From contig CAYYRD010000008.1 of assembly GCA_964474025.1 (NCBI GenBank), positions 53,593 to 117,592 of the forward strand: a DNA stretch of 64,000 bases. Reading direction: 5' to 3'. Each line of letters begins with the position of its first letter. Position 1 is the stretch's first letter. Below the pieces are notes generated by a model. It saw nothing but the letters and a program-made list of their open reading frames with translations, was not told where the DNA came from and searched no databases. This document shows positions 56,531 through 58,636 of this stretch, in pieces. The stretch comes from an uncultured Dehalococcoidales bacterium (GTDB lineage Bacteria > Chloroflexota > Dehalococcoidia > Lucifugimonadales > Lucifugimonadaceae). The position numbers were made by a program, and so were the translations under genes.

Positions 56531-57274
56531 ATGGGACTGGACGGCAAACGAATCGTCCTGACCGGCGCCGCCAGCGGCATCGGCATGGCAACGGCGCGCC
56601 GCGTGGCGCGCGATGGAGCTCGCGTGGCGATGCTCGACGTGATGGACGACGCCGGCGATGAGCTCGCCGCTGAAATCGGCGACCGCGCCCGGTACTGGCA
56701 CGCCGATGTGGCCGATGAGGCCCCTGTGAAAACGGTGATCGCTGAGGCGGCGGACTGGCTGGGTGGGATCGATGTCCTGCTGCACATCGCGGGTGTGCTG
56801 AACGGCGCTGATGTCGACCTGGGAGAGTTTTCTGAGGGCACCTGGGACCGGGTGATAGACATCAATCTCAAGGGGTCGTTCCTGGTCGCAAAGCACGTCG
56901 CTGCGGTGATGCGGTCCGCCGAGCGGGGAACCGGGCGCGGCGTAATGGTGCTGACGTCTTCGGGCGCGGGCGTGAAGGGCGGCAGCTCGTCGTTCGCTTA
57001 CGGTTCCAGCAAGGGCGGGGTCCACGGGCTTGCGATGGTGTTGGAGCAACGTCTCGGGCCGTTCGGGATCCGCGTGAACGACGTAGCGCCGGGCAATATC
57101 GATACCCCGCTCAAGGTGACCCAGGTCCGGGAAACATACGAGAAGACCGGCGACGCCGAGCGCTTCGAGAAGACGATGGCGTCCCTGGCAGATCCTTCTG
57201 GCGTGGCGGCGGTCATGGCGTTTCTGGCGAGCGACGACGCCGACTATGTCCGCGGAACGATTTTCACTCGTTAA
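56531..57274 (+). CDS. SDR-family oxidoreductase
   Basis: KRIVLTGAASGIGMATARRVA, catalytic YGSSKGGV, PGNIDTPL. GAAGGA lies 8 nt before ATG 56531. Confidence 0.9.
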   Translation: MGLDGKRIVLTGAASGIGMATARRVARDGARVAMLDVMDDAGDELAAEIGDRARYWHADVADEAPVKTVIAEAADWLGGIDVLLHIAGVLNGADVDLGEFSEGTWDRVIDINLKGSFLVAKHVAAVMRSAERGTGRGVMVLTSSGAGVKGGSSSFAYGSSKGGVHGLAMVLEQRLGPFGIRVNDVAPGNIDTPLKVTQVRETYEKTGDAERFEKTMASLADPSGVAAVMAFLASDDADYVRGTIFTR

Positions 57275-57469
57275 CGGGTTACACGGTTCCGGAATCCGGT
57301 AATGACTATCCGGCTCAGGGCCGGATGAATAGGACTCTCCGGTCCGTGGCGCGATGAAAATTGATACGAGAGACTGATTTCGCCATTTCTCACACCTTTT
57401 TGATGTATTTCGTTGTGTAATCGATTTCACATAACGTTATCTTTACGACACCTCCTCCAATCTTCTGTA

Positions 57470-57922
57470 TACTGCGATCATCGTCCTGATGTCTCCGTTA
57501 TCGGGTGTCGGAGAAGGTCCACCGCTTGCTGACGAAGCGAGCCCGGCCCGGCGTAATTCTGCCCGACGAAAGGCGGTCGAGCGGTGCCACTAATTCACGT
57601 GCGCAACTGCAGATGGCAGGTTGATCCCTTAAGCCCCGCGCGGCGAAGATCAACGTCGAAGATCGCGGTACCGAGCGGGGCTTCTGGATCCCATCGCATG
57701 GCTCGAGATAGTTAAGCCGAATCGGGCTCGCACGGCCCGAGGGCCATCCGGCGGTTGCGCCGGCATTGAGGGTTAACGATGGAGTGCGGCCGGGAATGGA
57801 TTTGCGGCCGTCCGGGACCCAGGGAGGAAATGCCCGGGTCCTGAGGGTGGCGGGGAATATCACATCTCCACTTCGCCACGACGAGTAAGCCAGCGCCAGT
57901 ACGTCGCTGGCTTTTCGTTTTT
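57470..57922 (+). ncRNA. Candidate unannotated transcript (structured RNA and/or micro-ORF) ending at a strong intrinsic terminator
   Basis: An AT-rich promoter-like stretch (57350..57480, TATACT at 57468) is followed by about 440 nt of GC-rich sequence with many local hairpins. It ends at AAGCCAGCG-N9-CGCTGGCTT-TTCGTTTTT (57887..57922). It has no credible ORF of 60 aa or more and matches no RNA family I can recognise. Confidence 0.3.
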
Positions 57923-57952
57923 AAGTCCGATTCTGAAACAGGATTCGGGCCG

Positions 57953-58636
57953 TTAACCAGGTTTGCGCATGCGGGCAAGTATGTGCCGCCCACCACTGGC
58001 CGAGTACCGCCGGTTTCCTGAGTTCATGACCTCCACCAGTTGACGTGCGTCTATCAGTTCAGCATCAGCTAGAAGACTGGCCTCGATCTCTTTGGCCCTG
58101 AGGAAGCCGAGCGCCAGATCGGTAACGTCATGGGACAACTCAAGATCCATACCGTACTGGGCGGCGATTGACTCTCCGGTCACTTCACTCGATCCGAAAT
58201 AATCGGTCAGCAGGAACAACCCGCCAGGTTTCAGCACACGCGATATCTCCGGCGGATGATAAAAACCCTCCGTGGAAAGCACCACGTCAAACTGATCGTC
58301 GTCGAAGCTGAGCGCCGTATCCCGATCCGGAACGAAGCGGCACAGGTCTGAAATCCCCTCTATCTCAGCCAGGTCCTCTGCAGTCGCAAGCGCCGCCTCG
58401 TCAATGTCGTATCCCCACACCGTGCAACCGAACAGGGAGGCGAGCCATCGGGCGTTGCCGCCAATCCCGCATGCGGCGTCGAGCACTGTCATCTCCGGTG
58501 CCATCTCGACGCCCTGGAGCAGGATCCTCACAAGGGTCTGGTTGGCGCCGACGTGCTGGAACTCGCCGTAAGGCTCGGCATCCGGGCGCGATCGTTCCTC
58601 AAACCACTCCTGGAGCCGTTGTGTCTTGTTAGCCAT
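57953..58636 (-). CDS. Class I SAM-dependent methyltransferase
   Basis: VLDAACGIGGNARWLASLFGCTVWGYDIDEAAL. Start taken at ATG 58636 (MANKTQRLQEW). The track ORF begins at GTG 58684, directly after the cupin stop. Confidence 0.8.
   Translation of the reverse strand: MANKTQRLQEWFEERSRPDAEPYGEFQHVGANQTLVRILLQGVEMAPEMTVLDAACGIGGNARWLASLFGCTVWGYDIDEAALATAEDLAEIEGISDLCRFVPDRDTALSFDDDQFDVVLSTEGFYHPPEISRVLKPGGLFLLTDYFGSSEVTGESIAAQYGMDLELSHDVTDLALGFLRAKEIEASLLADAELIDARQLVEVMNSGNRRYSASGGRHILARMRKPG

What the first reader, a model, noticed from the sequence alone, without database searches (positions are those of the whole stretch)
57275..57952. 680-bp convergent intergenic gap with a promoter-like AT-rich patch, a GC-rich structured body and a strong terminator: unannotated RNA gene or micro-protein?
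Seen in the sequence:
- The SDR gene (+) ends at 57274 and the methyltransferase (-) ends at 57953, so no promoter is needed here. Even so, the gap is one of the longest in the window.
- 57350..57480 is the most AT-rich stretch nearby (ttgatacgag..., ttgatgtatttcg..., tctgTATACTgcg).
- About 440 nt of GC-rich sequence follows, with many local helices. Examples are AAGCCCCGCG...CGCGG..GCGGGGCTT at 57630..57683, CCGGCG-GTTG-CGCCGG at 57749..57764, GGACCC...GGGTCC at 57814..57840, and GTTGATC/GATCAAC long-range pairs.
- It ends in a textbook plus-strand terminator, AAGCCAGCG-N9-CGCTGGCTT-TTCGTTTTT (57887..57922).
- No ORF of 60 aa or more is credible.
- One micro-ORF has a good Shine-Dalgarno (GAGGG, 6 nt): ATG 57779..TGA 57844, encoding MECGREWICGRPGPREEMPGS.

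I could not match the region to RNase P, tmRNA, SRP or 6S RNA, or to common riboswitch cores.
Basis: partly seen in the sequence, partly recalled or inferred. Interest (0 to 1): 0.6.

Follow-up and report, generated by a model that had tools for sequence, protein, structure and literature searches.

The report
New structured RNA gene in SAR202
The gap holds a real gene for a roughly 445-base folded non-coding RNA that matches no catalogued RNA family, occurs only in one genus of uncultured deep-ocean SAR202 bacteria, and carries in front of its promoter a weaker copy of the control site found on that genus's methyl-cycle (SAM/SAH) genes.

Summary
The micro-protein reading is wrong.

**What is there**
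- Window ~57478-57922 (+) is a stand-alone gene for a ~445-nt structured RNA.
- It has a conserved -10 box (TATACT, 57468-57473) and a conserved intrinsic terminator (57885-57922).
- It is conserved at 73-84% identity at the same SDR/methyltransferase site. Six species of one SAR202 (Chloroflexota) genus have it intact, as do several ocean metagenome contigs. The spacer upstream is unalignable.
- The consensus fold has 121 pairs; 21 show compensatory changes, against 8.9±2.2 in shuffles.

**Not coding**
- Substitutions show no codon periodicity, and there are 1-nt indels.
- Open frames sit in different phases in different species.
- The 21-aa ORF stops after 6 codons in 3 of 8 homologues.

**Not a known RNA**
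- No Rfam family matches.
- RNase P RNA and tmRNA lie elsewhere in the genome.
- CsrA was not found.

**Distribution**
- The RNA is dispensable: partly deleted in 3 species and absent in 5.
- It is kept intact where the neighbouring SDR gene is deleted.

**New lead**
- The conserved element at -50 to -30 is a weaker copy of a 20-bp palindrome.
- That palindrome sits in the sahR-metF, split-metH and ahcY-metK promoters. This suggests control by a SahR-type, SAH-responsive repressor.

Biochemical function is unknown.

The parts
57275..57300 (+). Conserved ~25-nt motif directly after the SDR stop codon (GGTTACACGGTTCCGGAATCCGG). It forms an imperfect hairpin and belongs to a small dispersed motif family. 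It is not part of the RNA.
   Evidence: Conserved in all syntenic loci. A second, diverged copy lies right of the terminator in L079, L101 and L027. One copy lies in an unrelated intergenic region of G001. About 10 near-matches occur in the own genome against about 4 expected (the expectation is my own estimate).
57301..57425 (.). Non-conserved, AT-richer spacer.
   Evidence: Unalignable between species whose flanking genes are 75-80% identical. GC of 57275-57467 is 0.47.
57428..57447 (+). Conserved operator-like element ACATAACGTTATCTTTACGA, centred about 42 nt upstream of the presumed transcription start. It is a weaker copy of the 20-bp palindrome (ATATAAnGATATGTTTATAT) found in the SAM-cycle promoters of this genus. 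It is a candidate SahR-type repressor site.
   Evidence: It is the most conserved block of the upstream region. A weight matrix built from the RNA promoters alone gives the ahcY site as the best other hit in the genome (25.3 bits, next 15.6). A matrix built from the four SAM-cycle sites alone scores this site 17.3 bits, the second-best non-training site among 3.3 million positions. Homologue scores are 8.6 to 25.3 bits in 7 of 9 and negative in L100 and L093.
57468..57473 (+). -10 box TATACT. There is no conserved -35 hexamer at 17±1 nt.
   Evidence: Promoter scan. Kept in 7 of 9 homologues. Conservation of the transcribed block starts 5-10 nt downstream.
57478..57922 (+). Presumed transcript: a ~445-nt structured non-coding RNA. 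The ends are inferred, not mapped.
   Evidence: 73-84% identity in 6 genus species plus metagenome contigs. 121 consensus pairs, 92.7% of cells paired, 21 pairs with compensatory change against 8.9±2.2 in shuffles and 3-8 in slid controls. Consensus energy is -138.4 on the plus strand and -110.8 on the minus strand. No Rfam match.
57478..57565 (+). 5' strand of the closing helix P1 (57478-57485, pairing with 57849-57856) and the 5' domain. The domain holds hairpin 57493-57513 with the invariant loop CGGGUG, nested helices 57516-57548, and hairpin 57549-57565.
   Evidence: Helices 1-6, mapped to window coordinates. P1 has 2 covarying pairs.
57567..57687 (+). Central domain. A long irregular hairpin (57567-57623) carries the invariant strands GAAAGGCGGU and CAGGUUGA. 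A long hairpin (57627-57687) has a variable tip.
   Evidence: Helices 7-9. Model R2, built on this domain, finds it only in this genus.
57691..57843 (+). 3' domain. Stems 57691-57709/57765-57782 enclose a junction with hairpins 57716-57744 and 57748-57763. Hairpin 57786-57811 has a UGGA loop. Hairpin 57813-57843 has a loop, GGAGGAAAUG, that looks like a ribosome-binding site plus start codon.
   Evidence: Helices 11-17, 91% mean column identity. The junction subdomain is tandemly duplicated in the most divergent homologue, L059, with changed but still pairing stems.
57857..57884 (+). Single-stranded linker between P1 and the terminator, variable in length and sequence.
   Evidence: About 11-28 nt in the homologues, up to about 26 nt in L059, with only a short AAUGUCACA-like core kept.
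57885..57922 (+). Intrinsic terminator: a 12-bp stem, a 5-nt loop and UUUUCGUUUUU.
   Evidence: helix 18: 97.9% of cells paired, one covarying pair. Conserved in every homologue, including the decayed copies.
57779..57844 (+). It is not a gene.
   Evidence: lengths 6-45 aa, premature TGA in 3 of 8 homologues, frame shifted by a 1-nt indel, and 14 of 19 variable sites at codon positions 1-2.

Best explanation
Window ~57478-57922 (+) is an independent gene for a ~445-nt compactly folded non-coding RNA. It belongs to a family that is not catalogued.

**Shown**
- A sigma-70-type -10 box (TATACT) precedes it, and a conserved intrinsic terminator ends it 31 nt before the stop codon of the convergent methyltransferase gene.
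- A helix pairs the 5' end with a segment about 370 nt downstream. It encloses three domains with many invariant unpaired nucleotides in loops and junctions.
- The RNA is under purifying selection where it is present. It is nevertheless dispensable: it was inherited vertically at one locus in one SAR202 genus and has been deleted repeatedly.

**Inferred, about 55% likely**
- Transcription is controlled by the genus's SahR-type regulator, an ArsR DNA-binding domain fused to a SAM-methyltransferase-like sensor domain.
- The basis is a lower-affinity copy of that regulator's 20-bp palindrome, centred near -42 and overlapping the -35 position.
- If so, the RNA would be made together with sahR-metF, split metH and ahcY-metK when S-adenosylhomocysteine accumulates.

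**Inferred, about 45% likely**
- The RNA acts in trans through its fold, by binding a protein or small molecule connected with the methyl cycle.
- It is less likely to act as a base-pairing antisense RNA or as an mRNA.
For: **Real, conserved unit**
- The conserved block runs exactly from the -10 box to the terminator. The spacer upstream is unalignable.
- It is single-copy in the own genome.

**Structure**
- 121 consensus pairs, 92.7% of cells paired.
- 21 pairs show compensatory change, against 8.9±2.2 in shuffles (0 of 500 reach it) and 3-8 in slid controls.
- MFE z = -3.7.

**Strand**
- Promoter and terminator are both on the + strand.
- 111 G-U cells, and consensus energy -138.4 (+) against -110.8 (-).

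**Not coding**
- Variable columns by position mod 3 are 61/143, 65/144 and 67/140, and there are 1-nt indels.
- The long minus-strand open frames fall in three different phases across species.
- The 140-aa minus-strand translation, searched against 1.84 billion proteins, gives four short hits (39-173 aa, 51-71% identical) that look like antisense ORF calls on this same RNA locus in relatives. I did not trace them to contigs. The other two hits are low-complexity.
- Pfam gives nothing. The micro-ORF is rejected.

**Independent of its neighbours**
- The RNA and its promoter are intact in G011 and G007, where most of the TIM-barrel and SDR genes are deleted.
- The RNA is absent in G001, where the SDR is intact.

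**Not a known RNA**
- Rfam E-value and gathering scans are empty.
- rnpB and tmRNA lie elsewhere. ARAGORN finds nothing.

**SahR link**
- Reciprocal weight-matrix scans connect the two sets of sites.
- The palindrome sits between -35 and -10 of four SAM-cycle promoters.
- Their genes are an ArsR-HTH+MTase regulator, MTHFR, a B12-binding protein, a pterin-binding protein and a homocysteine S-methyltransferase, plus ahcY and metK, which I identified by reading the translations.
- The motif occurs 3-6 times per genome in all 14 genus genomes, against 0-1 for the reversed control.
- The ahcY site is conserved in 8 species.
- This gene set equals the published core SahR regulon, and the published SahR site is a 20-bp palindrome (PMC4239095).
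Against: - There is no expression evidence.
- Only 8 distinct full-length sequences from one genus support the fold. Several helices never vary, and relatedness inflates the shuffle statistics.
- The operator-like site is weaker than the core sites (17.3 against 36-40 bits).
- It lies at a different promoter position, about -42 instead of in the -35/-10 spacer.
- It scores negative in the two most divergent RNA-bearing species, G007 and G004, whose ahcY operator is unchanged where seen.
- One unrelated site, C44:850, scores as high.
- No ligand, protein partner or target is identified.
- Half the genus does without the RNA.
Confidence: 0.72

Rival explanations
1. It is a trans-acting base-pairing sRNA. 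The large fold is mainly a scaffold, and a single-stranded segment pairs with target mRNAs. Candidates for that segment are the linker 57857-57884 or a conserved loop.
For: It has its own promoter and a Rho-independent terminator, as classical sRNAs do. There is a single-stranded linker with a short conserved AAUGUCACA-like core just before the terminator.
Against: - 445 nt with a 5'/3' closing helix and multi-way junctions is atypical for seed-type sRNAs.
- The linker varies in length and sequence.
- There is no conserved C/U-rich anti-Shine-Dalgarno segment.
- A crude duplex scan against the ahcY, sahR and split-metH start regions gave weaker energies than 86-96% of 250 background gene starts. 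That test is uninformative rather than negative.
Confidence: 0.15
2. It is a sensor-controlled antisense unit. The structured RNA acts like a very large riboswitch whose terminator is conditional, and read-through transcripts run antisense into the convergent methyltransferase-cupin genes. This would resemble the S-box-controlled antisense RNA of the Clostridium acetobutylicum ubiG operon (recalled from memory, not checked here).
For: The terminator ends only 31 nt from the stop codon of a SAM-dependent methyltransferase gene on the opposite strand. This arrangement is kept in every homologue. The promoter carries a methyl-cycle operator-like site.
Against: - No conserved alternative (antiterminator) pairing for the terminator arms was seen.
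- The segment between the fold and the terminator varies in length and sequence.
- The terminator is strong and conserved.
- The methyltransferase is retained at 85-97% amino-acid identity in all species that lost the RNA.
Confidence: 0.07
3. It is a non-functional relic: the decaying remnant of a gene, intron or mobile element that only looks conserved because the species are close.
For: - The locus is prone to deletion. The RNA is partly deleted in 3 species and absent in 5, and the neighbouring TIM-barrel and SDR genes also decay.
- A short motif flanks the unit on both sides in some species.
Against: - The adjacent spacer is already unalignable at the same divergence, while the RNA block keeps 73-84% identity.
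- Changes in stems are compensatory.
- Promoter and terminator are both maintained.
- No protein homology in any frame.
- No copy elsewhere in the genome and none in viral contigs.
- The flanking motif also occurs at unrelated sites.
Confidence: 0.05
4. It encodes a micro-protein (the 21-aa ORF at 57779-57844) or is a dual-function RNA.
For: GAGGG lies 6 nt before the ATG. The first 6 codons are nearly invariant.
Against: - Stop after 6 codons in 3 of 8 homologues.
- Lengths range from 6 to 45 aa, and a 1-nt indel shifts the frame.
- Substitutions are concentrated at codon positions 1-2 and are explained by stem covariation.
- The SD-like sequence and the ATG are themselves paired in the consensus fold (helices 57765-57772 and 57777-57782).
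Confidence: 0.02

Closest known systems
Orphan large structured bacterial ncRNAs (raiA, OLE, ROOL, GOLLD, MISL in Rfam)
   Same: - A stand-alone gene of several hundred nucleotides.
- A multi-domain fold with covariation and many invariant unpaired nucleotides.
- Narrow or patchy phylogenetic distribution, and no known biochemical function.
- A modular subdomain that can be duplicated (L059).
   Different: - No sequence or structure match to any of them (Rfam E-value scan).
- Found in one SAR202 genus only.
- Not associated with phages or tRNA islands.
- Carries a transcription-factor site that ties it to the methyl cycle.
SahR regulon (SAH-responsive ArsR-family repressor of SAM-cycle genes; PMC4239095)
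   Same: - The genome encodes an ArsR-HTH+methyltransferase-domain regulator whose own promoter carries a 20-bp palindrome.
- The promoters of metF, split metH and ahcY-metK carry it too.
- The RNA promoter carries a recognisable copy.
   Different: - Described SahR regulons contain protein-coding genes of Proteobacteria; Chloroflexi are not mentioned in that paper. An RNA gene as a member would be new.
- The RNA's site is weaker, sits at about -42 rather than in the spacer, and is not kept in 2 of 9 homologues.
- Binding was not tested.
SAM, SAH and SAM-SAH riboswitches
   Same: They are structured RNAs functionally tied to SAM-cycle genes.
   Different: - Those are 50-150-nt cis-acting leaders in front of the regulated gene.
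- This RNA is 445 nt, has no downstream gene on its strand, and matches none of the models.
CsrB/RsmZ-type protein-sponge RNAs
   Same: Size is similar (350-450 nt). There are GGA-containing hairpin loops (UGGA at 57797-57800; GGAGGA at 57823-57828). It has its own promoter and terminator.
   Different: There are only 2-3 such loops rather than a repeated array. The fold is globular with a closing helix. No CsrA gene was found in the 91.6%-complete genome.
RNase P RNA (bacterial type A)
   Same: Similar size, with the 5' and 3' ends joined by a closing helix. A 10-nt identity, AGGGAGGAAA, matches the P4/CR-I strand of this genome's own rnpB.
   Different: There is no covariance-model match, and the true rnpB is at C2:80079-80495 with 286 bits. 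The shared 10-mer lies in a hairpin loop near the 3' end here. The E-value of 0.25 in a tiny search space fits chance. The RNA is dispensable.

Membership tests
Any Rfam 15 family | Covariance-model score at or near the family's gathering threshold | tested here: not met
   E-value scan of 56800-58400 gave three matches at E 1.4-9.4, all far below gathering scores; two of them fit only the terminator hairpin. The gathering scan of the whole window gave 0 matches.
RNase P RNA / tmRNA / 6S RNA (housekeeping RNAs) | Model match, one copy per genome, universally retained | tested here: not met
   rnpB (286 bits) and tmRNA (147 bits) lie on other contigs. ARAGORN finds nothing here. The 6S model finds nothing anywhere in the genome, but this RNA is a branched 445-nt fold, not a rod with a central bubble. 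It is missing or decayed in 8 of 14 genus genomes.
Cis-acting riboswitch or leader | Lies in the 5' UTR of a regulated gene on the same strand | tested here: not met
   The next gene is convergent, in this genome and in every homologue.
CsrB/RsmZ-type sponge RNA | Partner protein CsrA/RsmA is encoded in the genome | tested here: not met
   PF02599 search of the own genome (91.6% complete) gave no match; the controls ring.
CsrB/RsmZ-type sponge RNA | Many repeated GGA hairpin loops | tested here: not met
   Only two conserved loops contain GGA, in hairpins 57786-57811 and 57813-57843.
Protein-coding gene or pseudogene | A conserved reading frame, codon-position bias in substitutions, and protein homologues | tested here: not met
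SahR regulon member | A SahR-type regulator (ArsR HTH plus SAM-methyltransferase-like domain) is present and autoregulated | tested here: met
   C4:165616-166638 (-) has HTH_5 plus Methyltransf_11/25 domains. The palindrome lies in its own promoter, with metF downstream.
SahR regulon member | The upstream region carries the same palindromic operator as the core regulon genes | tested here: inconclusive
   In favour: the reciprocal weight-matrix scans single out the site. Against: it has 3 mismatches in the 16-bp core, scores 17.3 against 36-40 bits, and sits at a different promoter position.
SahR regulon member | The site is conserved in orthologous promoters | tested here: inconclusive
   Positive scores (8.6-25.3 bits) in 7 of 9 homologues; negative in L100 (G007) and L093 (G004).
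SahR regulon member | The regulator binds the site, and SAH relieves binding | not testable with these tools
   This needs a gel-shift or footprinting assay, or co-expression data.
Mobile element or prophage cargo | Multiple copies, variable insertion sites, adjacent mobility genes, presence in viral contigs | tested here: not met
   Single copy. Always at the same syntenic site. No match in viral contigs. No mobility genes flank it.

The most novel reading that the evidence does not exclude
The RNA is the first RNA member of a SahR (S-adenosylhomocysteine-responsive) regulon. It would be a new class of large folded RNA that takes part in methyl-cycle homeostasis, for example by binding SAM, SAH or a related metabolite. 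Alternatively, it could bind a methyl-cycle enzyme or regulator. It would be made only when SAH builds up.
Probability: 0.3. Interest if true: 0.75.

Novelty: new member of a known kind. Interest (0 to 1): 0.55.

Why it matters
SAR202 bacteria are among the most abundant microbes of the dark ocean, and none of this genus is cultured. In the paper library searched, I found no work describing non-coding RNAs of SAR202.

A 445-nt RNA with a conserved intricate fold is a candidate for a new RNA function, such as ligand sensing, protein sequestration or catalysis. The operator-like site gives a concrete, testable handle that most orphan large RNAs lack. It predicts when the RNA is made (SAH accumulation) and in which pathway to look for its partner (the SAM cycle).

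The analysis also yields, as a by-product, a predicted SahR regulon in Chloroflexota. Its genes are sahR-metF, a corrinoid protein, a split methionine synthase, and ahcY-metK. SahR regulons were previously described in Proteobacteria.

Two things limit the impact. The RNA has a narrow distribution (one genus, lost in half of its species), and there is no expression or biochemical evidence.

Tried and rejected
- **Rfam:** the E-value scan of the region and the gathering scan of the window found nothing.
- **tRNA/tmRNA:** the ARAGORN scan found nothing.
- **Housekeeping RNA in disguise:** rnpB and tmRNA are elsewhere, and the RNA is dispensable.
- **Derived from rnpB or tmRNA:** only 8-10-nt chance identities.
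- **Degraded protein gene:**
  - The 121-aa minus-strand ORF has no Pfam hit.
  - Open frames lie in different phases in different species.
  - An exhaustive HMMER search found only what look like spurious antisense ORF calls.
- **Micro-ORF:** rejected.
- **CsrA sponge:** no CsrA in the genome.
- **Wider distribution:**
  - Models of the 3' domain (R1) and central domain (R2) found nothing in 137 other genomes of the family, outside this genus.
  - R1 found nothing real in 150 genomes of the order. The only hit, in G243, is a 42-nt tandem repeat array and is unrelated.
  - Viral contigs gave no match.
- **Insertion between direct repeats:** the flanking 25-nt motif also occurs at unrelated loci. 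The 'empty' sites in G013 and G010 keep pieces of the spacer or the RNA, so these are deletions.
no convincing match.
- **Antisense pairing with SAM-cycle start regions:** the crude duplex scan gave no signal (one search timed out).
- **Paralogous copies of the invariant RNA motifs in the genome:** none.
- **Literature on SAR202 non-coding RNAs:** nothing relevant.
Full report
**1. The observation**

The gap is real. The short-chain dehydrogenase (SDR) ORF ends at 57274 on the + strand, and a class I SAM-dependent methyltransferase ORF ends at 57953 on the - strand (Pfam). The left part of the gap (57275-57467) has 47% GC. The rest, like the whole window, has 62%.

The GTTGATC/GATCAAC pair is the exception: it is specific to this genome. 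The scan tools pick one sigma-70-like -10 box (TATACT, 57468-57473) and one intrinsic terminator (stem 57895-57911 followed by TTTTCGTTTT), both on the + strand. Folded alone, 57470-57925 gives -210 kcal/mol, z = -3.7 against dinucleotide shuffles.

**2. Organism and distribution**

Earlier notes on this genome call it an uncultured marine SAR202 (Chloroflexota) bacterium. The public records that carry homologues are titled Dehalococcoidia or Chloroflexota MAGs, one of them labelled 4000 m. The window lies in a 3.3-Mb, 44-contig assembly that is 91.6% complete. The element is single-copy there.

BLASTN against 40 relatives finds it only in the same genus, always between the SDR and methyltransferase orthologues. 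The conserved block starts at the -10 box and ends at the terminator T-run, at 73-84% identity. The 57300-57420 spacer cannot be aligned, although the flanking genes are 75-80% identical.

Two covariance models were built, R1 on the 3' domain and R2 on the central domain.
- Neither found anything in the 137 genomes sampled from other genera of the family.
- R1 also found nothing real in 150 genomes sampled from the order. The single weak hit there is a 42-nt tandem repeat array and is unrelated.
- An exact-pattern scan of metagenome and genome contigs, filtered with R1, added ocean contigs. These include a divergent homologue, L059.
- Viral contigs hold none.

**3. It is RNA, not protein**

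- Across six species, variable columns are evenly spread over the three positions (61/143, 65/144, 67/140), and there are several 1-nt indels.
- The long open frames on the minus strand (135-145 codons) are a GC-composition effect. They sit in three different phases in different species.
- The 140-residue minus-strand translation was scored against 1.84 billion representative proteins. It found four short proteins (39-173 aa, 51-71% identical) that look like antisense ORF calls on this same locus in relatives, though I did not trace them to contigs. It also found two low-complexity hits.
- Pfam gives nothing.
  - The start codon is ATG, GTG or TTG.
  - TGG>TGA stops it after 6 codons in 3 of 8 homologues.
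  - A 1-nt indel shifts the frame; lengths range from 6 to 45 aa.
  - 14 of 19 variable sites are at codon positions 1-2. Several of them are the two sides of covarying stem pairs.

**4. Structure**

An alignment of 8 distinct full-length sequences (A4) gives a consensus of 121 pairs in 18 helices. Counted on that alignment:
- 92.7% of cells are standard pairs, against 32-45% when partners are slid by 1-3 columns.
- 21 pairs carry a change on both sides, against 8.9±2.2 in 500 shuffles (none reaches 21) and 3-8 in the slid controls.

The plus strand is favoured. There are 111 G-U cells, and the consensus energy is -138.4 on the plus strand against -110.8 kcal/mol on the minus strand.

In window coordinates, the anatomy is:
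- **Closing helix:** 57478-57485 pairs with 57849-57856.
- **5' domain:** hairpin 57493-57513 with an invariant CGGGUG loop, nested helices 57516-57548, and hairpin 57549-57565.
- **Central domain:** a long irregular hairpin (57567-57623) with the invariant strands GAAAGGCGGU and CAGGUUGA, and a long hairpin (57627-57687) with a variable tip.
- **3' domain:** stems 57691-57709/57765-57782 around a junction with hairpins 57716-57744 and 57748-57763. Then hairpin 57786-57811, and hairpin 57813-57843 whose loop reads GGAGGAAAUG.
- **Tail:** a variable linker and the terminator (57885-57922).

In L059 the junction subdomain is duplicated in tandem, with altered but still pairing stems. That is typical of modular structured RNAs. 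The support comes from only eight related sequences, and several helices never vary, so details of the fold remain provisional.

**5. Not a known RNA**

- No Rfam 15 family comes near.
- RNase P RNA (286 bits) and tmRNA (147 bits) are on other contigs.
- The 6S model finds nothing in the genome, but this RNA is branched and dispensable.
- CsrA was not found, which removes the CsrB-type sponge idea raised by the two GGA loops.
- The only similarity to the genome's own rnpB is a 10-mer (E = 0.25).

**6. Evolutionary behaviour of the locus**

tBLASTN of the four neighbouring proteins against all loci shows the following:
- The methyltransferase and cupin genes are always intact.
- The RNA is intact with an intact SDR in G000, G003, G008, G004, L027/L073 and L059.
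- The RNA and its promoter are intact in G011 and G007, although a deletion has removed most of the TIM-barrel and SDR genes.
- The RNA is partly deleted in G005, G009 and G002.
- The RNA is absent in G001, G006, G010, G012 and G013.

The sites without the RNA in G013 and G010 retain pieces of the left spacer, or of the RNA's first and last bases. These are therefore deletions, not empty target sites. The RNA is thus ancestral to much of the genus. It is selected independently of its neighbours where kept, but it is dispensable.

**7. A regulatory lead**

The only conserved part of the upstream region, apart from the -10 box, is a ~22-nt block (57426-57447, TTCACATAACGTTATCTTTAC).

*Scan starting from the RNA promoters.* A weight matrix made from the nine RNA promoters alone was used to scan the whole genome. 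The best hit other than itself is a clear outlier, 25.3 bits against 15.6 for the next. It lies in the promoter of ahcY (SAH hydrolase), which is followed by metK. I identified both genes by reading their translations. That ahcY promoter block is conserved in eight genus species.

*Other sites of the same motif.* A matrix made from the ahcY sites finds three more near-perfect sites on contig C4. Each lies between a TTGAC -35 and the -10 of a promoter. The downstream genes are:
- an ArsR-HTH plus SAM-methyltransferase-domain regulator, followed by MTHFR (metF);
- a B12-binding corrinoid protein;
- a pterin-binding protein plus a homocysteine S-methyltransferase, which together form a split methionine synthase.

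*Match to the literature.* This gene set is the published core regulon of SahR, the SAH-responsive ArsR-family regulator, whose site is a 20-bp palindrome (PMC4239095). Here the palindrome is ATATAAnGATATGTTTATAT. It occurs 3-6 times per genome in all 14 genus genomes, against 0-1 for the reversed control.

*Scan starting from the SAM-cycle sites.* A symmetrised matrix was built from the four SAM-cycle sites only. It scores the RNA's element at 17.3 bits, the second-best non-training site among 3.3 million positions; the next is 12.6. The other high site, C44:850, is a TTGACAT direct repeat before an excisionase-like gene and looks unrelated.

*Caveats.*
- The RNA's site is much weaker than the core sites, which score 36-40 bits.
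- It is centred about 42 nt upstream of the presumed start rather than in the -35/-10 spacer.
- It scores 8.6-25.3 bits in seven homologues but is negative in G007 and G004.

I rate SahR control at about 55%.

**8. Mechanism**

*Shown:* a conserved, structured, non-coding promoter-to-terminator unit.

*Inferred:*
- It is transcribed from ~57480 to ~57922.
- A SahR-type repressor occludes its -35 region, and the RNA is made with the SAM-cycle genes when SAH accumulates.
- The closed, multi-domain fold with invariant loop and junction nucleotides acts by binding a protein or small molecule, not by antisense pairing.

A crude duplex scan gave no hint of pairing with SAM-cycle start regions, but that test is weak.

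A conditional-terminator, antisense role against the convergent methyltransferase is possible. However, no alternative pairing is conserved, and the methyltransferase persists unchanged without the RNA.

**9. Limits**

- The literature search found nothing on SAR202 non-coding RNAs. A description in a paper outside the library, or in a catalogue newer than Rfam 15, cannot be excluded.

**10. Verdict**

This is a genuine, previously uncatalogued structured RNA gene, restricted to one SAR202 genus. It has a testable link to the SAH-responsive methyl-cycle regulon. The micro-protein idea is rejected. The RNA itself had not been recognised in this scan.

Noticed in passing
own genome G000: C4:166663-166682, C4:169669-169688, C4:174016-174035 (all -) and C36:2655-2674 (+): A predicted SahR regulon in a Chloroflexota genus. 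A 20-bp palindrome, ATATAAnGATATGTTTATAT, lies between -35 and -10 of four promoters: sahR(ArsR+MTase)-metF, a B12-binding corrinoid protein operon, a split methionine synthase (pterin-binding protein plus Hcy S-methyltransferase), and ahcY-metK. It is conserved in all 14 genus genomes.
   Followed up: partly
window 57275-57300; also L010 1501-1530 and own genome C13:85931-85950: A dispersed ~25-nt intergenic motif, GGTTACACGGTTCCGGnATCCGG, that forms an imperfect hairpin. It follows the SDR stop codon in all species, recurs right of the RNA terminator in some, and occurs at unrelated loci. There are about 10 near-matches in the genome against about 4 expected. Its function is unknown.
   Followed up: partly
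L003 (G011) ~1259-1390 and L005 (G007) ~1061-1313: In two species a deletion has fused the first 21-43 codons of the TIM-barrel (xylose-isomerase-like) gene to the last ~42 codons of the SDR gene. The RNA gene next to it is untouched.
   Followed up: partly
L119 1390-1740 (G243, same order, other family): An array of about eight 42-nt tandem repeats (GGATGGATTCCCGTCTGCACGGGAATGACGGAGGGTGGACGG), each forming a hairpin with an AUGGAU loop. It gave a spurious weak hit to the RNA model. Its nature (coding repeat or RNA) was not examined.
   Followed up: no
L059 (metagenome contig Ga0114999_10019390), within the RNA homologue: A tandem duplication of about 59 nt of the three-way-junction subdomain, with both copies keeping the pairing through changed bases.
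   Followed up: partly
own genome C44:850-869: A direct repeat, ATATTGACAT ATGTTGACAT, upstream of an excisionase/MerR-like helix-turn-helix gene on a 4.3-kb contig. It may be part of a mobile element, and it scores by chance with the SahR-type matrix.
   Followed up: no
window 57819-57838 versus own rnpB (L110 ~1549-1568): The hairpin loop AGGGAGGAAAUGCCCGGGUC resembles the universal P4/CR-I strand of RNase P RNA (AGGGAGGAAAGUCCGGGC). It also resembles the ahcY ribosome-binding region (GGAGGACCCGGUG). This is probably chance, but it is the most conserved loop of the RNA.
   Followed up: partly
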